31,654 nucleotides of DNA, taken from UHGV virus genome UHGV-1544975; one strand, 5' to 3'. The position numbers and the translations under genes were made by a program. Source of the DNA: a virus. The notes beneath the pieces are model-generated. The model was not told where the DNA came from. It saw nothing but the letters and a program-made list of their open reading frames with translations, and searched no databases. Of this stretch, positions 898 through 31,654 are shown one piece after another (position 1 is the first letter of the stretch; each line of letters starts with the position of its first letter).

Positions 898-3372
898 TTA
901 TTGCGGAGTGACATCCTGAGGTCGCCACCAGTATGTCTGGTTAAACTCTTTCTTCGAACGTTGCTCCATTTTACGCAAATAGCCTGGTGAAAAATACTCC
1001 TGCATCTGGTTAAAAATCATGTGATCGAGAGCCGCCTTCAAGTACCAGAGATTCGCACCTGGCATCAAACCTTTCCCCAGCTTCACCAGATCACCACCAG
1101 TCTGCTCACTCTTCCCTTCCACAGCATTTAACGGTATGCCCTGAGCAATCTTCACTACGTCATCAACCAGACCAGCTACCGGGCCAAGCATCGACGCCAG
1201 CGCGCCGCTTCCGTACCTAGTGTGATCTGACAATAAAAAGTCACCGTAAAGGCCAAGACCACCACCTTTCAGTAGAGCACCAAGCCAAAATTTAGCAGCA
1301 TCTTCTCCTGTCATCTCGCGAGGATTACGACCAGACGCAAGGTCGTTAAGTTGCTGCGACAAAGCGCCAAGAATGGTCGTACTGGCAATAAACGTCGCAA
1401 TATATGCCGCACGCCCACCAGCAGACGGCATACCCATAGCGCGTGACCAGTGACGCATAACCACCGAGATAGGGAACGATTTAAACAGGAAAACACTTCT
1501 CGTTAATTCACCTTTCCATGTTCCACGCTGAATACCAGAACCGGTTATCAGTTGCTCACGTGCTCCTGGTGTAATAACAGCCATATCAACTTCTTCAGTT
1601 ACGGCACCGAGCAGTTTACGCATTGCCTCAAATTTCACGCGTTCAGGCTCACCAAGATGTTTAACTGCTGAATCAGGGATACGCATAATGCTTTCCGGTG
1701 TCAGCATCGTATTATTACCGTTCCCCCAGTCCTCCTGTTGCGCCAGCTTCCATACGCTCCAGTCTGTGTCAGTAATCCCTTTGCTTTTCAGGATACGAAA
1801 ATCAGAGTCATCGAGGCTACGAAGGTCTGGTGTCCGTGACACTACTTCTCCCAGGCTTCCCATCATGGTTACGCCATAGGCGCGCTTGTGCGCATCTGAC
1901 CATGCTGTAAGCCCACTGGCACGCATTACCGCCGTTGCCGCCCAACGAGACACTGACGGCCCCATATTATCCATCGCCCAGCGGTTAACGCTGCCAAGTA
2001 GAGATTCCATCGCCAGACCAGCGCGGCGCGCCCGCGCAAGTTCTGTACGGTTCGTTGGGTCCATAGCTTCAAGCTGGTTGCGGAATAACTGGTTCATTGG
2101 AAGGTTGGTCACCTTCGCAGACAGATACATGGTTCCAAGATCAGAGAACGATGATAGCAACGCAGATCCGAGTCTGCTGGCAACCAGCCAGTTGCGGATA
2201 TTGTCAGACCATCGCGCGATGTGCGGATTCGCTACAGGCTGTGTCTTTCCGGAAATAAAGTTGTACAGATTCTCTGTGTTGTTCGCCAGCCGCTCGACTT
2301 TACCGGTTTTACTCGGGTTAGCTGTTGCCGTTTCTGCCTTCACCTGATCAAGAAGAGAGCGGAAAACATGATCGGGGTTTGGGCCATATGTTTCCACCAG
2401 TGCAATATCTTTACTGATACCTTCCAGGTGACCGACCATGATTTCCCATAGAGAGCGATCGCCATAAAGTTGCTGATATTGCAGATAGGAATCTGCATCT
2501 TTGAAATGTATCTGTCGTGATGCATTACCACGGTTAGCACGTGCGCCGGAAATTCGCATTCCGGTATCAGTAAGCTTATTCAGCCCACCAGTAGCGATCG
2601 TGTTATAAGCCTCTCCAAGAAATGCAGACAACTCGGCATCGTTCATCAGTTGTCCATCGGCTCGGATATAATATTTGCGATCCAGCTTACCTATAACATC
2701 GCTAACCCACTTATCCTTTGATACCGCCCCAACCTTTTCCATAGAATGATGTTGAGGGAACCCCCAGTTTTCGAGATAGCCAATGTCCCCACCAGCATCA
2801 TTAAACCGGCGGCGCAGTAGATCTGTCACTTCTCTCCACGCCTTAGCACCTTTTCTTGCTTTAGCATTGCCAGTATTTTGCCCTCGCATTTCATATACCA
2901 GGTCACGTACGCCCGCTTCATCTTCAAACAGACCAAAAAAGCGAGGATCAACTGCTTCGAATGCCTCCTGCAATTGACTCAATGCATAATCACGAGTGGC
3001 TTTTGTTCTGGACTCAACAGAGAGGAAATTCGATTTACCGTCTGCATTAAAAGCAATAGTACGGTTAAGAGCGCCAAGTTTCCCATCAGCCCCTTGATAG
3101 CTATTGATAAATTTATCCAATCTCTGACGTGCGGCTATAGTGAGGGCCACACGACGTTTCTTTAATGCCGCTTCTCGCTGTAATTCTTCAGATGCCAATT
3201 GTGCTGCACGATATAGCCGCTCTGATTCGGAAAGTTGTCTCCACGACATCGGGTCATCACGAGCAATGGAGCGCATATTTCGATAAATGCGGTCTTCAAT
3301 GCTCTGTATTTCTCGCGCCGTTAACGTGCGCTGCGCCGCCTGCTGGACCGCTTGTATACATTCCTGTCTCAT
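898..3372 (-). CDS. Large internal virion / ejection protein (824 aa)
   Basis: Size and position at the distal end of the virion module; hydrophobic segments typical of ejection proteins; no specific family recognised. Confidence 0.45.
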   Translation of the reverse strand: MRQECIQAVQQAAQRTLTAREIQSIEDRIYRNMRSIARDDPMSWRQLSESERLYRAAQLASEELQREAALKKRRVALTIAARQRLDKFINSYQGADGKLGALNRTIAFNADGKSNFLSVESRTKATRDYALSQLQEAFEAVDPRFFGLFEDEAGVRDLVYEMRGQNTGNAKARKGAKAWREVTDLLRRRFNDAGGDIGYLENWGFPQHHSMEKVGAVSKDKWVSDVIGKLDRKYYIRADGQLMNDAELSAFLGEAYNTIATGGLNKLTDTGMRISGARANRGNASRQIHFKDADSYLQYQQLYGDRSLWEIMVGHLEGISKDIALVETYGPNPDHVFRSLLDQVKAETATANPSKTGKVERLANNTENLYNFISGKTQPVANPHIARWSDNIRNWLVASRLGSALLSSFSDLGTMYLSAKVTNLPMNQLFRNQLEAMDPTNRTELARARRAGLAMESLLGSVNRWAMDNMGPSVSRWAATAVMRASGLTAWSDAHKRAYGVTMMGSLGEVVSRTPDLRSLDDSDFRILKSKGITDTDWSVWKLAQQEDWGNGNNTMLTPESIMRIPDSAVKHLGEPERVKFEAMRKLLGAVTEEVDMAVITPGAREQLITGSGIQRGTWKGELTRSVFLFKSFPISVVMRHWSRAMGMPSAGGRAAYIATFIASTTILGALSQQLNDLASGRNPREMTGEDAAKFWLGALLKGGGLGLYGDFLLSDHTRYGSGALASMLGPVAGLVDDVVKIAQGIPLNAVEGKSEQTGGDLVKLGKGLMPGANLWYLKAALDHMIFNQMQEYFSPGYLRKMEQRSKKEFNQTYWWRPQDVTPQ

Positions 3373-3377
3373 TTAAT

Positions 3378-5180
3378 TTAACCTCTCAAGAAACACGCCA
3401 CAGCGACATCAAACAGGCTGGAATCCTGTATTGCCTGCTCACTTTCCCTGTTCGCTTCATCCAGTACTTCACGCGCACTGCGCGATTGTGGATTACCATC
3501 ATCATCCAGCACGGTGATTATCATGTCCGGAGATTCAAGCAGCGAGTCTTCAGCTATACGCAGATCAATATCTCCTGCCGGATCTGCCATCATTTTTTGT
3601 TCTGTCTGTTGCAATATCTTACCGGGCTCAAAAGGAGCTACTTCGTCTGGCGTCCTGACCTCTGCTGTTTTATAGAATGAAACAGCCTGAGCATTAAGTT
3701 CACTTTCTGCCTGCTGTCGTCGTGCCAGTTCTGCTCGAGCTTCAAAAAACTGACCTCCAGGCTCGTGCGGCGCCAACGCGTTACGAGAAAATTCCAGGCG
3801 TTCTTGTGCCTGCCGGATTCGTTGGTCAATATCGCGAAGTCTGGCCTGTTTATCTGATCGAGCACGAGATAAAGCCTTACCGCTACCGGTTGGCTCTTCT
3901 GCAAGAATTTGTGCGCGCTGTTCAGTGAGATTTTCAATAATTCGTTGGCTATTAGCGATTTCAGACTGGTAAACCTGTCTATCGCCACGCGACAAAAGCT
4001 GCGCGGCCTGTTCTTCAAGCAACCGATTTTCTATAGCGCGCGCCGTTACTCCATCATCTACAGATGACAGAGCCTCATTAACTGCCTGAGACAGCAGACT
4101 CTTGCGCCCAGGAATTTCACTGAAAGATGCAGACTCAACAATGCTGGCAACGTCTACAGGTCTCCCCTGGCTAACATCAGACATGGCTTTTCGCAGAGCC
4201 TGAATGTGCGAATTACGCGAAAGCACGTTGATCGGAACGCCGGGAGCAATATCAATTTCAGCATGATGAGCGGCATTCGCCGCCAGTGCAGCATCAATAT
4301 CAACTGGTGAAAAATTTGGTGTGCTTGTAGACTCGCCGCGAGAGTTAATAAATCTGCCGACACCACCAAACGCCACCCCAAGAACAGCATCAATAGCAAT
4401 TGCCTGTCGATCCAACACATCATACTGGTTAGCCATTTCGCTATAGCCACCATCACGAAGCGTTTTTGCAGTAAGCCCACGCTGTGCCATACCGAACGCA
4501 ATATTTGTACCTGCGGCATAGGCAATATCTGGCGTTGCACGTACTGCTGTTGCTGCGGCGCGTCGCACTGAACTTTCACCCGTCCGCGCAAGCTGAGCCG
4601 CCACACCTTCCGCCAGCGCACCACCAGCACGTAACCCGAGGCTCATAGGGATCAGTGTTCCGGCACCAGCAGTAATACCCTGCACTAATCCCGCTTCCTG
4701 CGCCGTCCTGAAATCAACACCCTGTGCTGTCAACCGTTCAAACTCAGAAAAACCCTGTAGAGAAGTTACCGCCGCAGCACCTCCGACCGGACCACCGAGC
4801 GTTGTACCGACAACAGCCTGCCCGCCCATATCGAACAACCCATAAAGGACCTGCCCGGCGGTTCCGGTTGTCGCGGCATCAGGCGTCAGCCGCTTAACCT
4901 GCTGCTCTGCTAGTTTTCTCTGCTCAGCAATGTATGAAACTGAAGTGTCATTGAGCGAGGTGTTTTCGTTAACAAGCTGAGCAATCGGTGATACGATTTT
5001 ATCCATCCCTGCCCATAGCAACTGATCTGGCTTTGCCACCAGCCCGGAGTACAAACCAGACAATGCCGCTCCTACAGCATTGTCGAAAAAACCAACATCG
5101 CTGTTAAAGCCAACTGGATTTGATGCTGCTTCGTCAAGCTGCTGATTCTGGTTTACTGGATTAAGGCCAAAGTAACTCAT
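3378..5180 (-). CDS. Internal virion protein (600 aa), Ala/Gly-rich with a coiled-coil C-terminal part
   Basis: Position between two other large virion proteins; 4-nt overlap with the upstream gene. Confidence 0.45.
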   Translation of the reverse strand: MSYFGLNPVNQNQQLDEAASNPVGFNSDVGFFDNAVGAALSGLYSGLVAKPDQLLWAGMDKIVSPIAQLVNENTSLNDTSVSYIAEQRKLAEQQVKRLTPDAATTGTAGQVLYGLFDMGGQAVVGTTLGGPVGGAAAVTSLQGFSEFERLTAQGVDFRTAQEAGLVQGITAGAGTLIPMSLGLRAGGALAEGVAAQLARTGESSVRRAAATAVRATPDIAYAAGTNIAFGMAQRGLTAKTLRDGGYSEMANQYDVLDRQAIAIDAVLGVAFGGVGRFINSRGESTSTPNFSPVDIDAALAANAAHHAEIDIAPGVPINVLSRNSHIQALRKAMSDVSQGRPVDVASIVESASFSEIPGRKSLLSQAVNEALSSVDDGVTARAIENRLLEEQAAQLLSRGDRQVYQSEIANSQRIIENLTEQRAQILAEEPTGSGKALSRARSDKQARLRDIDQRIRQAQERLEFSRNALAPHEPGGQFFEARAELARRQQAESELNAQAVSFYKTAEVRTPDEVAPFEPGKILQQTEQKMMADPAGDIDLRIAEDSLLESPDMIITVLDDDGNPQSRSAREVLDEANRESEQAIQDSSLFDVAVACFLRG

Positions 5181-7690
5181 TGCGGAATATCTCCGGAGAA
5201 TCTCTGACGCTTCTGTGTCAGATCAAGAACAACGGGAGAACCATCATCTTTTAGCAGATAACCAGTACCAAGTTTCACCAGGTACTGACTATCGCCGTAA
5301 CTTTGCAAACCATACTGACCAGGCGGTGTTTTTATCCCTGTGCCAACAACTTGTTCATTCCAAGCCTGATTAACCTGCTTATCGAATTGCTCTGCAGACA
5401 TTCCCCACGGCAAAAGAACATTCCCCATTCCGTTATAGTCATGCACGCCACCTGTAGCTACGTTAACAGCCTGTTTCCAGATATCATTGTCAATTTCGCC
5501 TGATACCACGCCTTTTTTCGCCATCACACCAGCGTAATAGTCCTTTGCGATCTCGTATGCCATTGATGCCCCCTGAGCATCACCAGCAAATGCATCCTTC
5601 ACCATGTCAGAAAACTCAAGGCGAAGATCAGCATCTTTAGGCATCGGAATACCTTTCGCGTCATCAGTACCTTTACGAGCCGCCGCGCCAGCAAGAATTG
5701 TCTGCGCAGCGGTTTCTGGAGACACGGAAACATCCGGATTAAACCAGTTTTTTTCTGCCAAAATACCACCTGGCTTATCCATCAGTATCCCGGCAACGGC
5801 AGCAGATGGAGCGTTGGCACTGATCTGCTGTAGTGCTGACATATACACCTGCCCACCACCAGTGCTCTGCCTGATGGTATCGAGATATGCTGCCTGTTGG
5901 GAAACGGGCGCATCACGAAAGAAAACACCGATCTGATTGGCCTCGTCTTTGGAAAAGAACGTCAGTGGAGTGCCATATGACTTAGCAAGGTCACTGACCT
6001 GAGCAGCACGCAAGGCAACGCTCTGTCCAAAGTTATCCTTATTGCTCATGTCGATAGGCTTTGCCTGTCCGGCGGCAAGAGAGAACTGTACAGGATCAGC
6101 CTGTCGCTGCTTTATCACCTGACTTGCAGCCGACACAACGTTGTCATAAAGAGCGGCTCGTGCCGCATAACCCTCCCCTGTCTCACCAGTATCCGGGCGT
6201 AATTGCTCAACATATGCTGTAATGCTGCTTGTCGGCATGTTGCGGAAAGAGCCTATATACTGTCCGGCGATTTGCGTATTTCTGAACTCGGTATATCGCA
6301 GGTTTCCTTCTCTTACTCCATAAGCTGCAATAAAATCAGCCTCACCAGGTGGGTTAGGAAATTCAACGCCACGCATATACGCAGCTGTCGCATCGCGAAC
6401 CTGGCTGTCAATCATCGTTTTATATTCAGCCTGCTGCTGCCGACGCAGTTGATCCGCCTGTCGCATAAAACTTGCCTGCGCCTCAGGAGATGCCGCATCG
6501 AATGCTGCATTACCGGTATAGCGTTTGGTGTTGGTTGGAATTGTTGATAAACCAAGTGCTGCACTGACACCAGCAGTTAACTGCTGATCACTGTATGGCT
6601 GGCTACCGTTCTCATGATGGATAATGGCTGCACAAAGCGCCTTCAGGGTATCAGGATTAGATGCATCGAGAGGCTCATCAGCAGAAACGCCAAGTTGTTC
6701 GCACACTGCTTTGATATACGACATAGTGTCATTTTTATCAGCAGGCGGTGCCCAGCGATTAATTATCTCGCTGACGGTATCAATACCCTGCCTCTGATAC
6801 GACATCAGGTTCCGCCCTAATGCACGAATCCCGTGTTCAGGTGTTTCGAATTTAGCAAATCGACCATCATCACCGGTCTGGCCTACCCACGGATTAGTTT
6901 TGCTGTATTCGAGATTTCCTGGGTTATTGTTGCGTATGCCACGGGCACGCTCGGAAGAGTCACTATCTGCTACAGCACGGCGAGCTCCAGCAGCAGTATC
7001 ACTTAACTCGCCATTACTTTGGATGAATGCGGTCGCATTGTTTGCCGACCACTGGGACAATGCAGCATCAGCAACCTTCTCTTTAAACTCGATTTTCTTG
7101 GCCTGGATTTGCTCGTTGCTCCAGCCATGTGCAACACCGTACTCCTCAATTTGCTGGAAAGTTTGCTTGTTAGCCAATACGTATGCGGCGTTGTCGCCAT
7201 ACAATGCTGCGGCATTTTTACCATTGTTCAGCAGTGTCGCCTGAAACTGGCCTTCTTCGTAGGCATTAATTTGCCCTATCTCGTGTCGCCCGGCCTGCGT
7301 AGTGAACTGAATGCGCTGCTGCTGCGCCTGCTGCATGAAAGCATTACGAGCCTGTTCATCCGGCAGCGACATAGCCAGTTGTTCGACCTGAGCATCAAAC
7401 TGCTGCGTATACTCATGGCCTTTTCCAATAGCATTTTTCCCTTTCAGGTTAAGCAATCCTGTTTCAGGATTATTCAGCAGATCGCTGCTTATCTGACTGA
7501 GGTTAAGAGATGCCTCCTGAGCCAGAGCGATATTGGCACGCTGTTTTGCCTGCCCCAAAACATCAATTGCCTCTGTCCCTGCCCGAACAAAAGCATCACC
7601 AATACCTTGCTGAGAAAACGTCTGCAAGCCTGCTGACTGAACTCCACGACTCTCAACCTGACGTCCGGATACTGTTGGTACGACTGGCAT
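5177..7690 (-). CDS. Internal virion protein (about 837 aa) with a possible cell-wall hydrolase segment
   Basis: Likely start at the internal ATG 7688..7690 (GGAGG RBS, overlaps the upstream stop) rather than track start 7765; conserved-looking segment GIRNNNPGNLEY... Confidence 0.45.
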   Translation of the reverse strand: MPVVPTVSGRQVESRGVQSAGLQTFSQQGIGDAFVRAGTEAIDVLGQAKQRANIALAQEASLNLSQISSDLLNNPETGLLNLKGKNAIGKGHEYTQQFDAQVEQLAMSLPDEQARNAFMQQAQQQRIQFTTQAGRHEIGQINAYEEGQFQATLLNNGKNAAALYGDNAAYVLANKQTFQQIEEYGVAHGWSNEQIQAKKIEFKEKVADAALSQWSANNATAFIQSNGELSDTAAGARRAVADSDSSERARGIRNNNPGNLEYSKTNPWVGQTGDDGRFAKFETPEHGIRALGRNLMSYQRQGIDTVSEIINRWAPPADKNDTMSYIKAVCEQLGVSADEPLDASNPDTLKALCAAIIHHENGSQPYSDQQLTAGVSAALGLSTIPTNTKRYTGNAAFDAASPEAQASFMRQADQLRRQQQAEYKTMIDSQVRDATAAYMRGVEFPNPPGEADFIAAYGVREGNLRYTEFRNTQIAGQYIGSFRNMPTSSITAYVEQLRPDTGETGEGYAARAALYDNVVSAASQVIKQRQADPVQFSLAAGQAKPIDMSNKDNFGQSVALRAAQVSDLAKSYGTPLTFFSKDEANQIGVFFRDAPVSQQAAYLDTIRQSTGGGQVYMSALQQISANAPSAAVAGILMDKPGGILAEKNWFNPDVSVSPETAAQTILAGAAARKGTDDAKGIPMPKDADLRLEFSDMVKDAFAGDAQGASMAYEIAKDYYAGVMAKKGVVSGEIDNDIWKQAVNVATGGVHDYNGMGNVLLPWGMSAEQFDKQVNQAWNEQVVGTGIKTPPGQYGLQSYGDSQYLVKLGTGYLLKDDGSPVVLDLTQKRQRFSGDIPQ

Positions 7691-22866: not shown

Positions 22867-22927
22867 CTTTACCCTCGCTTATCCACATAACTTATTGATT
22901 ACATTGATAACTAAAAAGATCGTCGAT

Positions 22928-23272
22928 TCAGAACTCTTCGATGTTCCAGCCACCACCTGCTTTCTTTGGCTTAACCGTTACCCCGATGATTCGGAACGGA
23001 TACTGATCTGCGGCGACTTTGGTTTTCACTCTGGCGTCATCGGTCCAGAAACCTTTCACTTCGTGTAGTTCCATCTCGCCGGTGGCGAGCATCACAGCAA
23101 AATCGGGCGTATAGAACGTGTTGTCAGCTAACCGCAGCTTGATACCCTCGAATCGATACCAGGCGATTTCCCCTGCACGTTTACGCAGCTCAAGGTGCTG
23201 GCAATACGCAGATTCTGTTTTGTTCATCTGGCCTGTTTTGAGTCGACCAAGAGCCTGTATCTGTTTTCTCAT
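22928..23272 (-). CDS. Small protein with PD-(D/E)xK nuclease-like motif (DUF1064-like?)
   Basis: Motif ...YTPDFAV...ELHEVKG consistent with a D...(D/E)xK core. Confidence 0.35.
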   Translation of the reverse strand: MRKQIQALGRLKTGQMNKTESAYCQHLELRKRAGEIAWYRFEGIKLRLADNTFYTPDFAVMLATGEMELHEVKGFWTDDARVKTKVAADQYPFRIIGVTVKPKKAGGGWNIEEF

Positions 23273-25353: not shown

Positions 25354-25584
25354 TCATGAGTAGAAGAAGTATGCCAGTTCTGCTTTTGAGCGCAGCCATT
25401 GTCTTGTTTTACAGGCTTTAAAAAGCCCATTCATCAATACTTTACCTGGCATTTTGCGCTTACCTGTTAAGTGAGTCTGGATATAGTGACTCGTCGTTCC
25501 GGCTTCCTGTGCGAAGGCTTCACGCTCATCCGGAGTAAGTGCAAGCCAGTGCTTTTTGAAATCGAAATGTCCGTTATCGCTCAT
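25354..25584 (-). CDS. Cro-like small HTH regulator (76 aa)
   Basis: First gene of the minus-strand replication operon, divergent from the repressor-like gene; helix-turn-helix-like segment. Confidence 0.45.
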   Translation of the reverse strand: MSDNGHFDFKKHWLALTPDEREAFAQEAGTTSHYIQTHLTGKRKMPGKVLMNGLFKACKTRQWLRSKAELAYFFYS

Positions 25585-25738: not shown

Positions 25739-26323
25739 ATGAAAAGTATCCAGGACGTCCGCAGGCAAAATCTCAACGACTTGATCGACCGTGAATTCAA
25801 TGGTGTTCAGACGCGGATGGCAGAAAAACTTGGAACTCAGGCAAATCTGGTAAACCGCTGGGCTCTTGGCAAGAAGGTTATCGGCGACCAGGTTGCACGA
25901 AAAATTGAAGCTGCCGCCAATAAACCCCGTAACTGGCTTGATATTGATCGTTCGCTTTCTCAGGAGGGTTTTCAGCCTGTCGGACCAAGCGACATTGGTC
26001 AACTGGCGGCTCACAACCTGGAACGCTGGATGAGCGAAAGCCGCGACCTTTCAACACAGGGAAAACTTCACCGCGCATCCGGCGTAGCCCAGGTGACAAT
26101 CAGCCGCCTGTTAAACAATGAGGTCAGCGTTTCCATTTCCACCCTGGAGAATGTTGCATCCGCATTCGGGCGTCATGGCTATGAATTACTGATTCACCCG
26201 CACGACCCTGCGACCATCAACTATGATCGCTCGCGCTACGCATTGTTACCCGAAACCGAGAAAGCAAAGATCGAAAGTTACATTGAATTTGTCATCAACC
26301 AGAACGAAAAAAGCAAACAATAA
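25739..26323 (+). CDS. Repressor-like protein with two HTH domains (194 aa), no S24 peptidase domain
   Basis: N-terminal and central segments both look HTH-like; divergent from the Cro-like gene; followed by a terminator. Confidence 0.5.
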   Translation: MKSIQDVRRQNLNDLIDREFNGVQTRMAEKLGTQANLVNRWALGKKVIGDQVARKIEAAANKPRNWLDIDRSLSQEGFQPVGPSDIGQLAAHNLERWMSESRDLSTQGKLHRASGVAQVTISRLLNNEVSVSISTLENVASAFGRHGYELLIHPHDPATINYDRSRYALLPETEKAKIESYIEFVINQNEKSKQ

Positions 26324-26631: not shown

Positions 26632-26931
26632 ATGAACGTTAATCAGCAGAAAAATCTTCAAAAAATCATGCTGGCATTCGACAAGGACTACCGCCTGTCA
26701 GAACAGCTATATGACCGACAAGTTGAACTGATTGAGAGCATCCGACTTCATCAACTGTCCTCAACTTTCGACGTTGTAACAGGCAAAGGCGTTCGTCAGG
26801 AAGTACTGGAGGCTGCTAAAGACAGCCCTGAGTTCGAAGAACTGATGGATGCCTATCGGCGAGAGGCAATGGCAATTATCGCCCGCTGGGATCTGGCGGA
26901 TCAGCTTGATGGGCAGAGGGACGCGGCATGA
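26632..26931 (+). CDS. Hypothetical early protein (99 aa)
   Basis: Internal ATG of track ORF 26617..26931 with GGGAGGG RBS; overlaps the exonuclease start. Confidence 0.45.
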   Translation: MNVNQQKNLQKIMLAFDKDYRLSEQLYDRQVELIESIRLHQLSSTFDVVTGKGVRQEVLEAAKDSPEFEELMDAYRREAMAIIARWDLADQLDGQRDAA

Positions 26932-27827
26932 TGCGGAACGCTGGAATCATGGATAGAACAAAATACATCGGAGGAAGCGATGTTGCAGGGATTCTTGGAA
27001 TTAGCCCATGGCGCACCCCGCTTGAGGTTTATCTGGATAAGGTCCAGCCACGTGTCAAACCAGTAGACCCAAGCAAGCAGAAAGTTTTCACGCGTGGCCA
27101 GCGTATGGAGCCATACGTAATAGACCTGCTTTCTGAGGAAACAGGGATGGAAATCGTTCATCGCGGAAACCGCTATATCCACCGTGATTACGATTTTATT
27201 GCAGCTGAGATCGATGCAGAAGCAGCGTCAGGCGAGAACATTGAGATCAAAACAGTTAGTCCGTTCAAAGCCAAAGAATGGGGAGAAATCCAGACAGATG
27301 CAATTCCTGTGCATTACACGGCCCAGGCCATGCACGGGTTGATGGTTACAAACAAACAGGTATGCGTTTTCGGTGTGCTTATCGGTGGCGACGACTTCCG
27401 AATCTATCGGGTTGAGCGTGATGAAGAAACTATCCAGGCGATCTTAGAAAAAGAAATCGCTTTCTGGGACCGAGTGAAAAATCTTAACCCGCCGGAAGCT
27501 ACCAGCGTAAGCGATGTATCGCTGATGTTTGAGAAAGATGCCGGGACAAGTATCGAGGCTGACGGAAAGGCACTCGCACTATTCAACAATCTACGAGACA
27601 TGAAATCACGCAGAAAATCACTGGAAGAAGAAATAGCTATATCAGAAGAGAAGCTGAAGATGTACATGCAAGAGCACTCAGTCCTGACCCTGGACGGAAA
27701 GCCGCTCTGCACATGGAAATCTCAGATCAGCAACAGATTCGACCAGAAGCTATTCCAGTCAGTACACCCTGAGTTATTCGAAAAATTCAAAACAACAACG
27801 ACACAACGCGTCTTCAGAATGAAGTAA
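26928..27827 (+). CDS. YqaJ-like recombination exonuclease (lambda Exo fold) with C-terminal extension
   Basis: N-terminal GGSDVAGILGISPW and D...E.K-type motif (AEIDAEAASGENIEIK); directly upstream of recT. Confidence 0.75.
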   Translation: MMRNAGIMDRTKYIGGSDVAGILGISPWRTPLEVYLDKVQPRVKPVDPSKQKVFTRGQRMEPYVIDLLSEETGMEIVHRGNRYIHRDYDFIAAEIDAEAASGENIEIKTVSPFKAKEWGEIQTDAIPVHYTAQAMHGLMVTNKQVCVFGVLIGGDDFRIYRVERDEETIQAILEKEIAFWDRVKNLNPPEATSVSDVSLMFEKDAGTSIEADGKALALFNNLRDMKSRRKSLEEEIAISEEKLKMYMQEHSVLTLDGKPLCTWKSQISNRFDQKLFQSVHPELFEKFKTTTTQRVFRMK

Positions 27828-27836: not shown

Positions 27837-28859
27837 ATGTCTATCAATGCACTTAAGGCAGCGGCTACCGGTAACCAAGTTGCACATCATAATGAGAAAC
27901 CAACAACTCTGGCCGGACTTCTGGCAGACCCAAAAATTAAAGCTCAGATGGCTTTGGCACTTCCAAAGCACATGACAGCAGACCGTCTGGCGCGCATAGC
28001 AACCACAGAGATCAGAAAGGTTCCAAAACTTGCATCATGCGACCAAGCCAGCTTCCTGGGGGCAATTATGCAATGTGCCCAATTGGGTCTTGAACCAGGC
28101 GGAGCTCTTGGACACGCTTACCTGATACCGTTCGACAAACGCCAGAAAGTAAATGGAAGATGGGAAACCGTATCTACAGAAGCACAGCTGATTATCGGCT
28201 ATCGCGGAATGATTGACCTTGCCCGCCGCTCTGGGCAGATCCTGAGTATCTCGGCTCGTACCGTACATACAAACGACAAATTCAGCTACTCATACGGCCT
28301 GGAAGAAACGCTCGAGCATTTACCTTGCGAAACAGGTGACAGCGGAGAATTAACGCACGTTTACGCCGTTGCACGACTGAAAGATGGCGGAGTCCAATTT
28401 GAAGTTATGAGCCGGGCAGACGTTGAGAAAGTTCGTGCACTGAGCAAAGCCGGTAGCAGTGGCCCATGGGTTGATCACTTCGATGAGATGGCTAAAAAAA
28501 CAGTAATTCGCCGACTGTTCAAATATCTTCCTGTTTCTATTGAAATGCAGAAGGCTGTTGTTATGGATGAGCGCGCTGAAGCTGGACTTAGCCAAGATAA
28601 CGCAGCTGTTATCACTGGTGAATATTCCGTAGTTGACGATGAGCGTCAACACCTGTCGCCAATTTCAGATTCAGAACGAGAAGAAGCTCGAGAATATATC
28701 ATCGCGATACTTAATAGCCTGGATCCATCTGCTGAAGATGCAAAAACGATGTTCAAGCGCGCTGAAAATGAAATTAACACCATGGCTGAAAAGCTCGGTG
28801 ATGAATATCACCAAAAATTCATGATGACGCTTAACGATATGCGTCCAGAATTCGAGTAA
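27837..28859 (+). CDS. recT: RecT-family single-strand annealing protein
   Basis: Characteristic segments LGLEPGGALGHAYLIPF and KKTVIRRLFKYLP; paired with the exonuclease. Confidence 0.85.
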   Translation: MSINALKAAATGNQVAHHNEKPTTLAGLLADPKIKAQMALALPKHMTADRLARIATTEIRKVPKLASCDQASFLGAIMQCAQLGLEPGGALGHAYLIPFDKRQKVNGRWETVSTEAQLIIGYRGMIDLARRSGQILSISARTVHTNDKFSYSYGLEETLEHLPCETGDSGELTHVYAVARLKDGGVQFEVMSRADVEKVRALSKAGSSGPWVDHFDEMAKKTVIRRLFKYLPVSIEMQKAVVMDERAEAGLSQDNAAVITGEYSVVDDERQHLSPISDSEREEAREYIIAILNSLDPSAEDAKTMFKRAENEINTMAEKLGDEYHQKFMMTLNDMRPEFE

Positions 28860-28908: not shown

Positions 28909-29157
28909 ATGAAAGGTGCATTAGGTAAGAAAGAACTCCTGGCGGTGGTGCCACTGTCATGGAGCACTATCGACCGTATGGAGCGCGCAGGGGAATTTCC
29001 TAAACGCTGGTATATCACCGATAAACGCTGCGCATGGAACCGTGATGAAGTTGAGCGTTGGCTTGATGAACGTCAGGCAGCAAGCCCGGCAGAGTTCCAG
29101 GGTAAAAAGCCTCCTGTTCAGCAACGTGTATATCGTCCCGTGAGCAACGCTGCATGA
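28909..29157 (+). CDS. AlpA-like small DNA-binding protein (excisionase/regulator-like)
   Basis: Segment LLAVVPLSWSTIDRMERAGEFPKRWYITDKRCAWNRDEVERWLD fits the AlpA/Xis-type HTH pattern. Confidence 0.55.
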   Translation: MKGALGKKELLAVVPLSWSTIDRMERAGEFPKRWYITDKRCAWNRDEVERWLDERQAASPAEFQGKKPPVQQRVYRPVSNAA

Positions 29158-29266: not shown

Positions 29267-29566
29267 GTGAGAAAGTTAAGCCGACTTGAAAAATATCACA
29301 TGAATAAGGTTTCAATGCGCAGTCCGTCAAAGATTGTCGCCGTTACTCCTGCGGCGATAGAGATCGAAAAACGCGCGATTGAAAGAGAGAAAAAAGGGCA
29401 ATTCCGCATTGCCGCTCACCTTTGGCTTCAGTGTATGGATGTTGCTTCTGGTGATGTTGAACGTGCAAGGATCGCGGTTCGCAGGGACCAATGTATCACA
29501 AAAGGTAACGGCCTTCGCCGTGGCGACTATAGCGGTATAGGATGTTGCGGGGTGGTTTATGACTAA
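29267..29566 (+). CDS. Possible PerC/Pch-like (ANR family) transcriptional regulator
   Basis: Segment FRIAAHLWLQCMDVASGDVERARIAVRRDQC resembles my recollection of the PerC core pattern; GTG start per track. Confidence 0.3.
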   Translation: MRKLSRLEKYHMNKVSMRSPSKIVAVTPAAIEIEKRAIEREKKGQFRIAAHLWLQCMDVASGDVERARIAVRRDQCITKGNGLRRGDYSGIGCCGVVYD

Positions 29567-30209
29567 GAAATACACACTAATCTATGCAGATCCACCCTGG
29601 GTATACCGGGACAAAGCCGCAGATGGTAATCGCGGTGCCGGTTTTAAATATCCGGTTATGAGTGTGATGGATATCTGCCGCCTTCCTGTGTGGGATTTGG
29701 CCGATGAAAACTGTCTGTTGGCCATGTGGTGGGTGCCAACACAACCACTCGAAGCACTAAAAGTTGTTGAAGCCTGGGGATTCCGTCTGATGACCATGAA
29801 GGGATTCACGTGGATAAAATGTGGTAGTCGACAACCAGATAAACTGGTTATGGGTATGGGTCACATGACTCGCGCCAATAGTGAAGATTGCCTGTTTGCA
29901 GTAAAGGGAAAACTACCTCCGCGCATTAATGCAGGGATCGTTCAGTCATTTACCGCACCGCGGCTTGAGCATTCAAGAAAACCAGATGTCGTTCGTGAAA
30001 AACTTGTGCAATTGTTAGGCGATGTTTCTCGCATTGAACTGTTCGCCCGCCAGTCGTCTCATGGCTTCGATGTTTGGGGTAATCAGTGCGAAGACCCGGC
30101 AGTGCAACTACACCCTGGATACGCGTTGGATATTGCCAGATTAACAAATGCATTCAGCAATGCTCCGCTGTCACCAACAGACAACCAGGGGCGGGAGCGT
30201 GCAGCATGA
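29559..30209 (+). CDS. MT-A70 family DNA N6-adenine methyltransferase (orphan)
   Basis: Catalytic DPPW motif in IYADPPWVY; no adjacent restriction endonuclease candidate. Confidence 0.8.
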   Translation: MTKKYTLIYADPPWVYRDKAADGNRGAGFKYPVMSVMDICRLPVWDLADENCLLAMWWVPTQPLEALKVVEAWGFRLMTMKGFTWIKCGSRQPDKLVMGMGHMTRANSEDCLFAVKGKLPPRINAGIVQSFTAPRLEHSRKPDVVREKLVQLLGDVSRIELFARQSSHGFDVWGNQCEDPAVQLHPGYALDIARLTNAFSNAPLSPTDNQGRERAA

Positions 30210-30400
30210 ACCGGGCATCACCAGCAGATTTAAGGAAATGCCTTGAAACTGCAAACATGCTTGCACACAGCGGGATCAGGTTTGTTCCAATTCCCGCTGT
30301 CACCGATGCTGAATTTGCAACGCTGTCAGCAATATTCGAAGACAAAATTGAATCACTGGCAGCAGAAGCCGAGATGGAAGAAAATCAGCAGAATAATTAA
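30206..30400 (+). CDS. Hypothetical small protein (64 aa) coupled to the methyltransferase
   Basis: ATG overlaps the methyltransferase TGA (ATGA); track ORF 30086..30400 is the same frame over-extended. Confidence 0.4.
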   Translation: MNRASPADLRKCLETANMLAHSGIRFVPIPAVTDAEFATLSAIFEDKIESLAAEAEMEENQQNN

Positions 30401-30403
30401 ACG

Positions 30404-31654
30404 TTATTCCCCCGCCATCCACTTCTCAAACTTCGACGGGGAGAACGGAATCAGATCCGTATGCTCCCCGTCAATCCAAGAATCAATCATATCGGCCCAC
30501 TGCTGCAACATGTAGGCGCGCTGTCTGGCGTATTCCGCTTTGTTATATACGGCGCGCACACCTTTCTGCTCATGTGCCAGAGCCTTTTCAATCCAGTCTG
30601 AAGGATAACCAGCCTCATGCAACAACGTACTGGCTGTACGGCGCATATCGTGTACGGTGAAGTCCTGAATATGCTCACCATCTTCATTTATTATTTTCAC
30701 CGTTCTGTCGATCAGAGAGTTCAGTGCGGCATTAGATAATGGCTTCCGGAAATTGTAACGACCAGGAACCAGGTATTCACTTCCACCAGCGCACATCTGC
30801 AACCCGACCAATATATCCTGTGCCTGTTTAGGCAGGTAAATAACGTGCGCCCGGCTTCCTTTCATGCGGTCTGAAGGAATTGTCCATGTCCATTTTTTAA
30901 AATCTATTTCATCCCACGTTGCATTGGTGAATTCGCCCTTACGAACCATAGTGATAAGCACCAGTTTTAAAGCCATTTTCATAGTGCCCATAGCACCAAT
31001 GGCATCCAGCGTGCGGAAGAACAGGCCAATTTCTTCTGGTGTCAGTGTTCGCTCTCGTGGTTTAAATATGGCGATAGACGAAGGTTTAATGTCAGCCGCA
31101 GGATTAAACAAACCATGACCACGGTCATTGGCGTGACGGTATACGCTGCTGATGATCTCCCTGGCCTGCACTGCTGTTGCCCGGCCACCGCGTTCGACAA
31201 TCCGGTCACACAAATCACGAACCATCGATGTGGTAATTTCAGCCATCATTTTATTGCCAAGAACCGGAAGTATGTCACGGTCGATCACCGCCTGTTTCAT
31301 TGCGCGGGTACTGTCAGCCAGGATGACGTGTTTCATATAACTGTCGGTATGTACCGCAAACGTCTCGGCACCACGAATCTTTTTGATACCGTCACGTTTA
31401 GCCGCAGCCGGTGACTGGCCTGCTTTAAGCAGCTTCTTTGCAGCAATCAGTTCTTCTCGCGCTTCTGCCAGGCTGATACCGTCACGCCCATACTGCCCGA
31501 TTACCAGCGTTTCGCGGCGACCGTTGATACGGTAGTCGTAGCGAAACGAGACCGTGCCTGACGTAAGCACAGCCACATACAGCCCGTCACGATCGGAAAC
31601 TTTGTACAGTTTGTCCTGTGGCTTGAGGTTTTTTAATTTTGTATCGGTAAGCAC
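30404..31654 (-). CDS. int: Tyrosine integrase, P4-type; start at or just beyond the window edge
   Basis: N-terminal LTDTKLKNLKP...DGLYV arm-binding-type domain; C-terminal catalytic region with HDMRRT and terminal Y; first codon in window is GTG at 31652..31654. Confidence 0.9.
   Translation of the reverse strand: MLTDTKLKNLKPQDKLYKVSDRDGLYVAVLTSGTVSFRYDYRINGRRETLVIGQYGRDGISLAEAREELIAAKKLLKAGQSPAAAKRDGIKKIRGAETFAVHTDSYMKHVILADSTRAMKQAVIDRDILPVLGNKMMAEITTSMVRDLCDRIVERGGRATAVQAREIISSVYRHANDRGHGLFNPAADIKPSSIAIFKPRERTLTPEEIGLFFRTLDAIGAMGTMKMALKLVLITMVRKGEFTNATWDEIDFKKWTWTIPSDRMKGSRAHVIYLPKQAQDILVGLQMCAGGSEYLVPGRYNFRKPLSNAALNSLIDRTVKIINEDGEHIQDFTVHDMRRTASTLLHEAGYPSDWIEKALAHEQKGVRAVYNKAEYARQRAYMLQQWADMIDSWIDGEHTDLIPFSPSKFEKWMAGE

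What the first reader, a model, noticed from the sequence alone, without database searches (positions are those of the whole stretch)
898..31654. Mosaic temperate phage: lambda-like replication and recombination genes, T7-like tail and core, P4-type integrase
The O/P replication pair and exo/RecT are lambdoid. The virion module follows a T7-like order (capsid, gp11-like adaptor, gp12-like nozzle, gp14-like protein, large internal proteins), yet terminase precedes portal as in P22 or epsilon15-type phages. The integrase is P4-type with an AlpA-like regulator nearby. Short-tailed temperate phages with a T7-like core are comparatively poorly characterised.
Basis: partly seen in the sequence, partly recalled or inferred. 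Interest (0 to 1): 0.5.

Follow-up and report, generated by a model that had tools for sequence, protein, structure and literature searches.

The report
phiV10/epsilon15-type prophage of E. coli
The window is most of an ordinary, already well-described short-tailed temperate phage of the phiV10/epsilon15 group (genus Uetakevirus), integrated next to guaA in an E. coli chromosome.

Summary
The window is 100% identical to E. coli ECSC054 and covers 31.65 kb of a 38.4-kb prophage bounded by the published phiV10/epsilon15 att core at the 3' end of guaA. It is 98% identical in DNA to isolated Uetakevirus phages (PAS61, O157 typing phages 9/10, phiv142-3, ZX5, phiV10). Structural proteins are 94-100% identical to phiV10.

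Confirmed:
- P4-type integrase with an AlpA-like Xis.
- Lambda P homologue.
- YqaJ exonuclease plus RecT.
- Terminase genes before the portal.
- Portal of the T7 gp8 family.
- Adaptor with the T7 gp11 fold.
- Nozzle homologous to solved podophage nozzles and remotely to T7 gp12.
- T7 gp14-family protein.

Not confirmed:
- The "O" gene is a wHTH + DnaT-domain initiator, not lambda O.
- The repressor is SPC32H-type, not lambda CI-type.
- The three large proteins show no similarity to T7 gp15/gp16 that I could detect.
- The group is not poorly characterised.

All of this is already in the phiV10 and epsilon15 records and papers, so interest is low. One minor extra: a rare Tad2-family (anti-Thoeris/AcrIIA7-like) gene replaces the usual gene in a cargo (moron) slot at 17579-17875.

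The parts
898..3372 (-). 824-aa virion protein, orthologue of phiV10 gp20 and epsilon15 gp17 (proposed equivalent of T7 gp16, IVP-D)
   Evidence: 99% aa identity to phiV10. 28% identity over the full length to epsilon15 gp17, E 3e-109. PHROG 684 'virion structural protein'. No Pfam, NCBIfam or PDB sequence hit. hhalign against T7 gp16 was negative. The IVP-D assignment comes from PMC4819975.
3378..5180 (-). 600-aa protein, orthologue of phiV10 gp19 and epsilon15 gp16; function unproven
   Evidence: 98% aa identity to phiV10. PHROG 1145, function unknown. No Pfam or PDB hit.
5177..7690 (-). 837-aa virion protein with an internal lysozyme-like (peptidoglycan hydrolase) domain, orthologue of phiV10 gp18 and epsilon15 gp15
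   Evidence: Residues 249-398 match 9vvp_L Gp29 (E 5.5e-38) and the endolysin 7q47 (E 2.8e-17). PHROG 992 'head protein', plus endolysin and injection-transglycosylase PHROGs. No BLASTP similarity to T7 gp16.
7690..8235 (-). 181-aa internal virion protein of the T7 gp14 family
   Evidence: Pfam PF24072 T7_gp14, E 2.9e-7, 31 bits against a cut-off of 27. T7 gp14 hits the same family. PHROG 418 'internal virion protein'.
8235..8699 (-). 154-aa internal virion protein in the position of T7 gp13 (IVP-A)
   Evidence: PHROG 308 'internal virion protein', E 9e-63. 99% identity to phiV10 gp16. No Pfam hit, so it is not in Phage_T7_Gp13.
8699..11170 (-). 823-aa tail nozzle (equivalent of T7 gp12, tubular tail protein B)
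   Evidence: PDB 8ck1_A 'Tail Nozzle' of phage Carin-1, E 8e-217. A profile search also finds the LME-1 nozzle (E 3e-57) and 'nozzle gp13' 23sh_T (E 4e-6). hhalign to T7 gp12: E 3e-5, probability 73%, residues 321-439 against 350-466. 18,281 cluster representatives at E<=0.001.
11170..11775 (-). 201-aa tail adaptor (equivalent of T7 gp11, tubular tail protein A)
   Evidence: AF2 model with pLDDT 87. Foldseek against PDB: Carin-1 connector E 2e-16, TM 0.85; T7 gp11 (7box_N) E 2e-6, TM 0.60; P22 gp4 E 0.73. 100% identity to phiV10 gp14 and 85% to epsilon15 gp11.
11775..12098 (-). capsid staple protein (epsilon15 gp10 type)
   Evidence: Pfam PF21628 Gp10-like, E 6.5e-52.
12149..12484 (-). 111-aa protein, orthologue of phiV10 gp12 and epsilon15 gp9; function unknown
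   Evidence: PHROG 590. 99% identity to phiV10.
12495..12932 (-). Bbp16-family capsid cement-like protein
   Evidence: Pfam PF21190 Bbp16, E 3.6e-49.
12984..13970 (-). major capsid protein (epsilon15 gp7 family, HK97 fold)
   Evidence: Pfam PF20911 GP7, E 5e-149.
13985..14680 (-). 231-aa putative prohead protease or scaffold
   Evidence: PHROG 458 'protease', E 1e-110. No Pfam hit.
14683..14979 (-). Bbp19-like small head protein
   Evidence: Pfam PF25181, E 2.8e-17.
14976..16655 (-). portal protein of the T7 gp8 family
   Evidence: Pfam PF12236 Head-tail_con, E 2.7e-186. T7 gp8 hits the same family, whereas P22 gp1 hits P22_portal.
17304..17380 (+). tRNA-Arg (anticodon TCT)
   Evidence: ARAGORN. 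Annotated at the same place in O157 typing phages 9/10 and phiv142-3.
17579..17875 (+). 98-aa Tad2-like (DUF2829) cargo (moron) gene, a candidate anti-defence protein
   Evidence: Pfam PF11195 Tad2-like, E 3e-24. Solved Tad2, ModTad2 and AcrIIA7 chains at E 3e-15 to 2e-11. Absent from phiV10. Found in 3 of 506 E. coli genomes that carry the flanking sequence.
17966..19441 (-). terminase large subunit
   Evidence: PHROG 2 'terminase large subunit', E 1e-52. 99% identity to phiV10 gp2. No Pfam, NCBIfam or PDB sequence hit.
19438..20112 (-). terminase small subunit
   Evidence: Pfam PF03592 Terminase_2, E 1.4e-29.
20153..23272 (-). accessory early-right genes: regulator-like 112 aa, ASCH, eaa, DUF551, Ea22-like, 217 aa, DUF1064. 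This is the most mosaic stretch.
   Evidence: Pfam and PHROG hits. 20765-22420 does not align to phiV10.
23390..24175 (-). lambda P-type replication protein (DnaB helicase loader)
   Evidence: Pfam PF06992, E 1.5e-56. 31% identity to lambda P, E 1e-36.
24172..24987 (-). replication initiator with an N-terminal wHTH (HTH_36) and a C-terminal DnaT domain; not a lambda O-family protein
   Evidence: Pfam HTH_36 + DnaT. PHROG 1032 'replication initiation protein'; the N-terminal half also matches PHROGs named O-like. No BLASTP similarity to lambda O.
25354..25584 (-). 76-aa Cro-like first gene of the rightward operon
   Evidence: PHROG 35 'transcriptional repressor', E 6e-13. It diverges from the repressor gene.
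25739..26323 (+). prophage repressor of the SPC32H Rep type (two HTH domains, no S24 peptidase domain)
   Evidence: PDB 5d50 'Repressor', E 3.5e-42. Pfam finds HTH domains only. 99% identity to phiV10 gp40.
26928..27827 (+). YqaJ-family 5'-3' exonuclease, a distant relative of lambda Exo
   Evidence: Pfam PF09588, E 2.7e-23. 90% identity to epsilon15 gp35. Lambda Exo E 2e-4. No match in phiV10.
27837..28859 (+). RecT single-strand annealing protein
   Evidence: Pfam PF03837, E 7e-57. 93% identity to epsilon15 gp34. Not related to the phiV10 RecET fusion.
28909..29157 (+). AlpA-family HTH protein, the likely excisionase
   Evidence: Pfam PF05930, E 3e-5, 24.2 bits against a cut-off of 21. 100% identity to phiV10 gp36 'AlpA family regulatory protein'. 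The epsilon15 orthologue is annotated as an excisionase.
29315..30400 (+). PerC-family regulator, MT-A70 adenine methyltransferase and DUF1382 protein
   Evidence: Pfam PF06069, PF05063, PF07131.
30404..31654 (-). P4-type tyrosine integrase. The window ends at its start codon.
   Evidence: Pfam Arm-DNA-bind_3 (E 4e-20), Phage_int_M, Phage_integrase. 99% identity to phiV10 integrase, which is annotated INT_P4. The att core lies 191 bp beyond the window end.

Best explanation
The window is 31.65 kb of an apparently intact 38.4-kb prophage of the genus Uetakevirus (phiV10/epsilon15-like temperate podophages) in E. coli ECSC054.

Shown here:
- It sits between yfgI and guaA, flanked by direct copies of the published 17-bp att core.
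- It is collinear with phiV10 gene for gene, apart from a few swapped cassettes.

Inferred from family membership and the literature:
- Integration and excision. A P4-type tyrosine integrase, with an AlpA-like Xis, recombines attP with the 3' end of guaA.
- Lysogeny switch. An SPC32H-type repressor holds lysogeny. It is probably relieved by an SOS-controlled BRO-N antirepressor encoded just outside the window.
- Replication. A wHTH/DnaT-domain initiator and a lambda-P-type loader recruit host DnaB.
- Recombination. A YqaJ exonuclease and RecT carry out single-strand-annealing recombination.
- Head. TerS and TerL package DNA into a capsid built from a gp7-family (HK97-fold) major capsid protein with a gp10-type staple protein. 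The T=7 geometry is known from epsilon15; it was not tested here.
- Tail. It is built on a T7-gp8-type portal by a gp11-fold adaptor and a gp12-like nozzle that carries the tailspikes.
- DNA delivery. The gp13-like and gp14-like proteins and three large proteins are packaged as an internal core. At infection they are ejected, digest peptidoglycan and form the channel across the cell envelope.
For: - Identity. The window is 100% identical to NZ_AP024112.1. 281 of 5426 complete E. coli genomes hold at least 80% of window 1-25000.
- Isolated relatives. For window 898-25000, DNA identity is 98.1-98.5% over 79-91% of the query to PAS61, O157 typing phages 9/10, phiv142-3 and phiV10.
- Whole prophage against phiV10: 81% aligned at 97.1% identity.
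- Proteins. 32 of the 41 genes I delimited in the window are at least 88% identical in protein to phiV10.
- Ends. The att core ATTGAGTGGGAATGATT is present at both ends, as published for phiV10, epsilon15 and ZX5 (PMC9782041).
- Solved structures. Nozzle and adaptor match the Carin-1 and LME-1 tail structures. The adaptor has the T7 gp11 fold. The nozzle aligns to T7 gp12 by hhalign.
- Portal and gp14-like protein share their Pfam families with T7 gp8 and gp14.
- The repressor matches the SPC32H Rep structure 5d50.
- A perfect CTGT-N8-ACAG palindrome lies upstream of the BRO-N operon.
- Literature. Epsilon15 tail and internal proteins were related to T7 (PMC4819975, PMC8954989). ZX5 lysogeny, integration at guaA and the repressor/antirepressor roles were shown experimentally (PMC9782041).
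Against: - No experiment shows that this particular prophage is inducible.
- The three large proteins have no similarity to T7 gp15/gp16 that I could detect, and the AF2 model of the 824-aa protein failed with pLDDT 37. Their role as core or ejection proteins is inferred from gene order, size, the lysozyme-like domain and published epsilon15 work.
- As PMC12391199 summarises it, genetic work on epsilon15 (Guichard 2013) places gp15 and gp17/16 in the tail packaging/injection device. Their location before ejection is therefore not settled.
- The packaging mode (headful or not) was not tested.
Confidence: 0.96

Rival explanations
1. It is a defective or cryptic prophage remnant that keeps phage genes but can no longer form particles.
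For: Inducibility was not tested. Many E. coli prophages are defective. Unlike phiV10, it has no serotype-conversion gene beside the tail fibre gene.
Against: Both att cores are intact. At 38.4 kb it is full length, against 39.1 kb for phiV10. RefSeq flags no pseudogene in the stretch. Structural proteins are 94-100% identical to those of plaque-forming phages.
Confidence: 0.08
2. It is a true T7-group (Autographiviridae) phage that acquired lysogeny genes.
For: Gene order from portal to the internal proteins, and protein sizes, match T7 gp8-gp16. It shares the portal and gp14 Pfam families with T7.
Against: No phage RNA polymerase appears among the 41 proteins scanned. Terminase genes lie upstream of the portal. 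Capsid and terminase belong to other families. BLASTP against T7 gp8, gp11 and gp12 is not significant. The adaptor and nozzle do not reach the Pfam Tube and Phage_nozzle models.
Confidence: 0.01
3. It is a P22-like (Lederbergvirus) or lambdoid phage with a P22-type tail.
For: Terminase-then-portal order. Lambda P homologue. Ea22, eaa and DUF1382 accessory genes shared with lambdoid phages.
Against: The portal is not in the P22_portal family. The adaptor model matches P22 gp4 only at E 0.73, TM 0.32. Pfam scans found no lambda O, no CI with an S24 domain and no N- or Q-family hit. No tape-measure or tail-tube gene is present.
Confidence: 0.01

Closest known systems
Escherichia phage phiV10 (NC_007804, Uetakevirus phiV10) and close relatives vB_EcoP_PAS61, O157 typing phages 9/10, phiv142-3, vB_EcoP_ZX5
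   Same: Same gene order throughout. DNA identity is about 97-98.5%, and 94-100% at the protein level for all structural proteins, TerS, TerL, P, the initiator, the repressor, the AlpA-like protein and the integrase. Same att core and guaA integration site. Same tRNA-Arg.
   Different: Only 81% of the prophage aligns to phiV10 (identity x coverage 0.79), so by the usual 95% rule it is another species. Cassettes that differ from phiV10:
- the recombination module, which is epsilon15-type YqaJ + RecT instead of the phiV10 RecET fusion;
- the ea/nin-like stretch 20765-22420;
- small genes at 1-894;
- the Tad2-like cargo gene;
- outside the window, the receptor-binding part of the tail fibre and the missing O-acetyltransferase gene.
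Salmonella phage epsilon15 (NC_004775), type member of the group
   Same: Same genome architecture. The adaptor is 85% identical, YqaJ 90% and RecT 93%. The capsid gp7, gp10 staple and Bbp16-like families are shared.
   Different: Much more diverged overall. The ZX5 paper reports 37% coverage at 82% identity between ZX5 and epsilon15 (PMC9782041). The 824-aa protein is only 28% identical to gp17. Epsilon15 has no lambda P-type gene annotated beside its initiator and carries serotype-conversion genes.
Phage T7 tail and internal core (gp8, gp11, gp12, gp13, gp14, gp15, gp16)
   Same: Same order and nearly the same sizes: 559/536, 201/196, 823/794, 154/138, 181/196, 837/747 and 600+824/1318 aa. 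Same Pfam families for portal and gp14. Same adaptor fold. Remote nozzle homology in the central region.
   Different: No significant pairwise sequence similarity. The adaptor and nozzle fall outside the Pfam Tube and Phage_nozzle families. The peptidoglycan-hydrolase domain sits in the middle of the first large protein rather than at the N-terminus of gp16, and it is not an SLT domain by Pfam. The large proteins are not demonstrably homologous. There is no phage RNA polymerase, and the phage is temperate.
Marine phage Carin-1 (PDB 8CK1) and Legionella phage LME-1 (PDB 9EFK) tails
   Same: These are the closest solved structures for the nozzle (E 8e-217 and 2e-15) and the adaptor (E 3e-26 and 4e-5; Foldseek TM 0.85 and 0.68).
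   Different: Different hosts and genomes. Only the tail proteins were compared.
Phage lambda replication and recombination genes
   Same: P homologue (31% identity). The exonuclease is a distant relative of Exo. The divergent repressor/cro layout has the recombination genes downstream of the repressor.
   Different: The initiator is not O. The annealase is RecT, not Bet. The repressor lacks the S24 domain and is SPC32H-type. The integrase is P4-type and transcribed convergently.

Membership tests
Uetakevirus (phiV10/epsilon15-like temperate podophages) | At least 70% nucleotide similarity (identity x aligned fraction) to a member of the genus | tested here: met
   Whole prophage against phiV10: 81% aligned at 97.1% identity, product 0.787, measured in one direction only. 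Window 898-25000 against PAS61: 91% coverage at 98.3% identity.
Uetakevirus (phiV10/epsilon15-like temperate podophages) | Collinear gene order from TerS to the gp17-like protein, and the early region with repressor, recombination genes and integrase | tested here: met
   Gene-by-gene correspondence with the phiV10 and epsilon15 annotation.
Uetakevirus (phiV10/epsilon15-like temperate podophages) | Integration at the 3' end of guaA through the core ATTGAGTGGGAATGATT | tested here: met
   Exact copies at L001 5450-5466 and 43845-43861, the latter overlapping the end of guaA. 0.02 matches expected by chance. The core sequence is published in PMC9782041.
Uetakevirus (phiV10/epsilon15-like temperate podophages) | Epsilon15-type capsid: gp7 major capsid protein plus gp10 staple | tested here: met
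   PF20911, E 5e-149, and PF21628, E 6.5e-52.
Uetakevirus (phiV10/epsilon15-like temperate podophages) | Short-tailed virion morphology | not testable with these tools
   Inferred from 94-100% protein identity to phages with published podovirus morphology (PMC9782041).
T7-type tail and core module | Portal of the T7 gp8 family (Pfam PF12236) | tested here: met
   Window portal E 2.7e-186. T7 gp8 E 2.8e-113 in the same family.
T7-type tail and core module | Adaptor homologous to gp11 (Pfam PF17212 Tube, or the gp11 fold) | tested here: inconclusive
   Sequence tests are not met: no Pfam hit, BLASTP E 25, hhalign E 0.59. The fold test is met: Foldseek against T7 gp11 (7box_N) gives E 2e-6, probability 1.00, TM 0.60.
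T7-type tail and core module | Nozzle homologous to gp12 (Pfam PF25675 Phage_nozzle) | tested here: inconclusive
   No Pfam hit and BLASTP E 1.7. However, hhalign of a 32-sequence profile against T7 gp12 gives E 3e-5, probability 73%, over 113 columns in the region published as conserved (PMC4819975). The profile also finds the solved 'nozzle gp13' 23sh_T at E 4e-6.
T7-type tail and core module | gp14-family internal protein (Pfam PF24072) | tested here: met
   E 2.9e-7, 31 bits against a cut-off of 27, covering 1-172 of 187 profile positions.
T7-type tail and core module | gp15 and gp16 homologues | tested here: not met
   BLASTP of the 837-aa protein against gp16: E 0.32. hhalign of an 824-aa alignment against gp16: E 0.18. 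The AF2 model was unusable, pLDDT 37. Published HMM-HMM chains do link epsilon15 gp17 to the gp16 family but could not confirm a gp15 homologue (PMC4819975).
Autographiviridae (true T7-like phages) | Phage-encoded single-subunit RNA polymerase | tested here: not met
   No RNA polymerase family appears among the Pfam hits of the 41 window proteins, and none is annotated in the rest of the prophage.
Lambdoid replication module (O + P) | Lambda P-family helicase loader | tested here: met
   PF06992, E 1.5e-56. BLASTP to lambda P, E 1e-36.
Lambdoid replication module (O + P) | Lambda O-family initiator | tested here: not met
   Pfam gives HTH_36 + DnaT only. BLASTP to lambda O, E 0.07. Only the N-terminal wHTH half matches PHROGs labelled 'O-like'.
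Lambda-type immunity | CI repressor with a LexA-like S24 autocleavage domain | tested here: not met
   The repressor has HTH domains only and matches the SPC32H Rep structure 5d50 at E 3.5e-42.
P4-type tyrosine integrases | N-terminal Arm-DNA-bind_3 (DUF4102) domain, central domain and tyrosine recombinase catalytic domain | tested here: met
   PF13356 E 3.9e-20, PF22022 E 5e-12, PF00589 E 1.4e-19. NCBIfam PRK09692 domain hit at 148 bits, below its 434-bit cut-off.
P4-type tyrosine integrases | Integration into a tRNA gene (typical of the family, not obligatory) | tested here: not met
   The target is the 3' end of guaA.
P22-like tail | P22 portal family and gp4 adaptor fold | tested here: not met
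   The portal hits PF12236, not PF16510. The adaptor model against P22 gp4 gives E 0.73, TM 0.32.

The most novel reading that the evidence does not exclude
The only element that known relatives do not already account for is the cassette at 17579-17875. A Tad2/AcrIIA7-family (DUF2829) gene precisely replaces the usual gene in a cargo (moron) slot between terminase and portal. It sits between conserved terminator-like hairpins, with a CTGT-N8-ACAG palindrome 68 bp upstream. The most novel reading is that this slot in Uetakevirus prophages is an exchange site for anti-defence cargo, and that this rare allele (3 of 506 E. coli genomes carrying the flanks) is a working signal-sponge inhibitor of Thoeris-type or related defence, possibly switched on with the SOS response at induction.
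Probability: 0.3. Interest if true: 0.3.

Novelty: already known. Interest (0 to 1): 0.08.

Why it matters
It matters little for discovery. This is one more copy of a prophage type present in about 5% of complete E. coli genomes, whose genome, virion structure, infection process and lysogeny switch are published.

The check is useful as calibration.

Two small points have practical value:
- Within the genus, the recombination module and several accessory cassettes are exchanged between the phiV10 and epsilon15 lineages.
- A rare Tad2-family gene rides in a cargo slot, which may interest people who catalogue anti-defence genes.

Tried and rejected
- Pairwise BLASTP of portal, adaptor and nozzle against T7 gp8, gp11 and gp12 found nothing significant. 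Profile or fold methods were needed.
- hhalign of the adaptor alignment against T7 gp11 failed, E 0.59, because the alignment was too shallow (Neff 2.1).
- The search for homologous proteins for the nozzle and for the 824-aa protein returned only relatives at 81% identity or more in the listed top 120. They were of no use for deep profiles. The search of 50%-identity cluster representatives gave the diverse set used for the nozzle profile.
- The AF2 model of the 824-aa protein, built on a 13-sequence alignment at 88-96% identity, had pLDDT 37. It was not used for a fold search.
- BLASTP and hhalign of the 837-aa and 824-aa proteins against T7 gp16 were negative.
- NCBIfam found nothing for the structural proteins or TerL.
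- The first script, a tblastn table against T7, epsilon15, P22 and lambda, failed because loci fetched by accession are not copied to the script machine. It was replaced by single comparisons and by a phiV10 locus fetched through a hit id.
- The Carin-1 paper (PMC10134823) and the Guichard 2013 epsilon15 paper (PMC3832910) are not held. A text search for phage E1004 was uninformative.
- Considered and rejected: T7-group membership, P22-like membership, a long-tailed lambdoid phage. See the rival explanations.

Full report
**What the window is.** A megablast of window 1-25000 against complete E. coli genomes gives a 100% identical match over its full length in strain ECSC054 (NZ_AP024112.1). 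281 of 5426 genomes hold at least 80% of it. Against the phage collection, window 898-25000 matches isolated phages at 98.1-98.5% identity. These are vB_EcoP_PAS61 (91% coverage), O157 typing phages 9 and 10 (90%), phiv142-3 (90%), vB_EcoP_ZX5 and HEMP4 (85% coverage at 98.4% and 97.5% identity) and phiV10 (79%). More distant matches go to Enterobacter phage Tyrion and to the Salmonella SPN1S/SPC32H group. All are Uetakevirus, the epsilon15/phiV10 genus.

**Limits of the element.** In the RefSeq context phage genes run from just after yfgI to just before guaA. The published attachment core of phiV10, epsilon15 and ZX5, ATTGAGTGGGAATGATT (PMC9782041), occurs exactly twice in the 49-kb locus, at L001 5450-5466 and 43845-43861, where 0.02 matches are expected by chance. 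That bounds a 38,412-bp prophage. The window corresponds to L001 12001-43654. It therefore starts inside the prophage, so bases 1-897 are also phage. It lacks the left arm: lysis genes, tail fibre and BRO-N antirepressor. It ends at the integrase start codon, 191 bp short of the right att core. The core is absent from the window itself.

**Gene content.** I delimited 41 protein genes using the ORF list and the RefSeq calls, and scanned them against Pfam, PHROGs and NCBIfam.
- Late operon, minus strand:
  - TerS (Terminase_2).
  - TerL (PHROG 2 only; no Pfam, NCBIfam or PDB sequence hit).
  - A short plus-strand insert carrying tRNA-Arg(TCT) and a 98-aa DUF2829 gene.
  - A 68-aa gene.
  - Portal (PF12236).
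  - Bbp19-like protein.
  - A 231-aa 'protease' PHROG.
  - Major capsid protein (PF20911 GP7, E 5e-149).
  - Bbp16-like cement protein.
  - A 111-aa gene.
  - gp10 staple (PF21628).
  - 201-aa adaptor.
  - 823-aa nozzle.
  - 154-aa internal virion protein.
  - 181-aa T7_gp14-family protein.
  - Three large proteins of 837, 600 and 824 aa.
- Early-right operon, minus strand: a Cro-like gene, a 66-aa gene, the initiator (HTH_36 + DnaT), lambda P (PF06992), DUF1064, then a variable set (217 aa, Ea22-like, DUF551, eaa, ASCH, and a 112-aa regulator-like protein).
- Early-left operon, plus strand: the repressor, two small genes, YqaJ, RecT, the AlpA-like protein, PerC-like protein, MT-A70 methyltransferase and DUF1382.
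- The integrase converges on the early-left operon from the right end.

**Comparison with phiV10.**
- tblastn against phiV10 gives 94-100% identity for every structural protein, and 97-100% for TerS, TerL, P, the initiator, the repressor, the AlpA-like protein, PerC, MT-A70, DUF1382 and the integrase.
- These stretches do not align: 1-351, 414-894, 17583-17869, 20765-22420 (apart from two short aligned patches) and 26935-28855.
- The last of these is the recombination module. phiV10 carries a RecE-RecT fusion unrelated to the window's genes. The window's YqaJ and RecT are 90% and 93% identical to epsilon15 gp35 and gp34.
- For the whole prophage against phiV10, the aligned fraction is 0.81, identity 0.971 and their product 0.787. 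That means the same genus, and by the usual 95% threshold a different species.
- The mosaicism is real, but it is ordinary cassette exchange within a known genus.

**The T7-like tail and core claim.** I fetched T7 and ran its proteins through Pfam as a control.
- Portal: T7 gp8 and the window portal fall in the same family (PF12236), while P22 gp1 falls in P22_portal. The portal is T7-type.
- gp14: T7 gp14 defines PF24072. The window's 181-aa protein reaches it at 31 bits against a cut-off of 27.
- Adaptor: the window adaptor does not reach T7 gp11's Pfam family, Tube. BLASTP is not significant, and hhalign with a shallow adaptor profile fails.
- Adaptor fold: an AF2 model with pLDDT 87, searched with Foldseek against the PDB, gives:
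  - Carin-1 connector, E 2e-16, TM 0.85;
  - LME-1 adaptor, E 2e-9;
  - T7 gp11 (7box, 6r21, 7ey7), E 2e-6 to 8e-5, TM about 0.6;
  - gp11-type adaptors of KP32, Kp7, P-SCSP1u, PhiM1 and SU10;
  - P22 gp4, only E 0.73, TM 0.32.
- Nozzle:
  - It does not reach T7 gp12's Pfam family, Phage_nozzle, and BLASTP to gp12 is not significant.
  - It matches the solved Carin-1 'Tail Nozzle' 8ck1_A at E 8e-217, and LME-1 orf18.
  - The family is very large, with 18,281 cluster representatives.
  - A 32-sequence profile also finds a solved 'nozzle gp13' at E 4e-6.
  - The same profile aligns to T7 gp12 with hhalign at E 3e-5, probability 73%, residues 321-439 against 350-466. That is the region Hardies et al. 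reported as conserved between epsilon15 gp12 and T7 gp12 (PMC4819975).

**The large proteins.** Here the claim is weaker.
- The 837-aa protein has a lysozyme-like domain at residues 249-398 (9vvp_L Gp29, E 5.5e-38; endolysin 7q47). This fits a virion-borne wall-digesting function like that of T7 gp16, but the domain is in a different protein position and is not an SLT domain by Pfam.
- The 824-aa protein is the orthologue of epsilon15 gp17 (28% identity, E 3e-109). PMC4819975 links gp17 to the gp16 (IVP-D) family only through chained HMM comparisons. That paper could not confirm a gp15 (IVP-C) homologue in the epsilon15 group.
- My own tests were negative or failed: BLASTP E 0.32, hhalign E 0.18, AF2 pLDDT 37, and no PDB sequence hits for the 824- and 600-aa proteins.
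- Order and size do agree with T7: 837 against 747 aa, and 600+824 against 1318 aa.
- PMC8954989 lists epsilon15 among podophages with gp14/15/16-like ejection proteins and a T7-like core stack.
- The ejection-channel role is thus inferred, not shown.

**The lambda-like claim.**
- P is a clear lambda P homologue (31% identity over 204 residues, E 1e-36).
- The gene before it is not O. There is no BLASTP similarity, and Pfam finds HTH_36 plus the DnaT DNA-binding domain, as already annotated for phiV10 gp43 and epsilon15 gp42. Only its N-terminal winged-helix half resembles initiators that PHROGs label 'O-like'.
- The exonuclease is YqaJ-family and only distantly related to lambda Exo (E 2e-4).
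- The annealing protein is RecT, not Bet.
- The repressor has no S24 peptidase domain and matches the solved SPC32H repressor 5d50 at E 3.5e-42.
- A perfect CTGTATAAATATACAG palindrome lies upstream of the operon holding the BRO-N antirepressor, outside the window. This fits an SOS-controlled antirepressor switch. For ZX5, the repressor and antirepressor roles were shown by overexpression (PMC9782041).

**Integrase.** It has the Arm-DNA-bind_3, Phage_int_M and catalytic domains, and phiV10's identical-length orthologue is annotated INT_P4. The 82-aa protein reaches Phage_AlpA (24.2 bits, cut-off 21) and is 100% identical to phiV10 gp36, 'AlpA family regulatory protein'. Its epsilon15 orthologue is annotated as an excisionase. 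Unlike most P4-type integrases, the target is the end of guaA rather than a tRNA gene.

**Verdict.** The object is an already known kind of phage, nearly identical to sequenced isolates, and each 'mosaic' feature is already written in the phiV10 and epsilon15 records or in the papers cited. Interest is therefore low.

**The one item that is not routine.** The 98-aa gene at 17579-17875 belongs to Pfam Tad2-like (E 3e-24). It matches solved Tad2, ModTad2, SptTad2, SPO1 Gp34.65 and AcrIIA7 chains at E 3e-15 to 2e-11. It replaces exactly one ORF between conserved flanks and has no similarity to the phiV10 gene at that place. It is found in only 3 of 506 E. coli genomes that carry the flanks, the others having a 'Gp49 family protein' there. 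No phage record shares it at the DNA level. I recorded it as a side observation and did not test its function.

Noticed in passing
window 17579-17875 (+): A 98-aa DUF2829 (Pfam 'Tad2-like') gene sits in a cargo (moron) slot between TerL and the tRNA/portal. It matches solved Tad2, ModTad2, SptTad2, SPO1 Gp34.65 and AcrIIA7 chains (E 3e-15 to 2e-11). It precisely replaces the unrelated phiV10 gp3-type gene. It is present in only 3 of 506 E. coli genomes that carry the flanks, and in no phage record at the DNA level.
   Followed up: partly
window 17496-17511 (+): A CTGTAAACCAGTACAG palindrome (LexA-box pattern CTGT-N8-ACAG) lies 68 bp upstream of the Tad2-like gene, between two terminator-like hairpins (17424-17459 and 17544-17559). 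Another terminator-like hairpin follows the gene at 17896-17915. Three matches to the pattern were found in the 49-kb locus against 0.83 expected, so this one may be chance.
   Followed up: no
L001 10068-10083 (about 1.9 kb left of the window start): A near-consensus LexA-box palindrome, CTGTATAAATATACAG, lies between the tail-fibre gene and the small gene that precedes the BRO-N antirepressor gene. This fits SOS-controlled antirepression as the induction route.
   Followed up: partly
window 26935-28855 (+): The recombination module (YqaJ exonuclease + RecT) is the epsilon15 type (90% and 93% aa identity), not the RecE-RecT fusion of phiV10, in an otherwise phiV10-like backbone. This is a clean cassette exchange within the genus.
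   Followed up: yes
window 17304-17380 (+): A tRNA-Arg (anticodon TCT, reading the rare AGA codon) is encoded on the strand opposite to the late operon, between terminase and portal. It is shared with O157 typing phages 9/10 and phiv142-3.
   Followed up: partly
window 17966-19441 (-): The large terminase subunit has no Pfam, NCBIfam or PDB sequence hit and is annotated 'hypothetical protein' in this RefSeq genome. Only PHROG 2 and the phage records identify it.
   Followed up: partly
window 5177-7690 (-), residues 249-398: The peptidoglycan-hydrolase (lysozyme-like) domain of the virion lies in the middle of the first large protein. In T7 an SLT domain sits at the N-terminus of gp16. The domain content of the large proteins is therefore arranged differently from T7.
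   Followed up: partly
L001 6970-9909 (left of the window): Unlike phiV10 (oac), PAS61 (O-antigen acetylase) and epsilon15 (serotype-conversion genes), this prophage has no O-antigen-modifying gene between the tail-fibre gene and the holin genes; only 73 bp separate them. The receptor-binding part of the tail fibre does not align to phiV10.
   Followed up: no
window 1-897: Small prophage genes lie outside the finding's coordinates: a 53-aa 'membrane associated protein' cargo-gene PHROG (213-374, +) and a 98-aa protein of unknown function (406-702, -). Neither aligns to phiV10.
   Followed up: partly
window 29315-30209 (+): A PerC-family transcriptional activator and an MT-A70 adenine methyltransferase are carried in the early-left operon, as in phiV10.
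   Followed up: no
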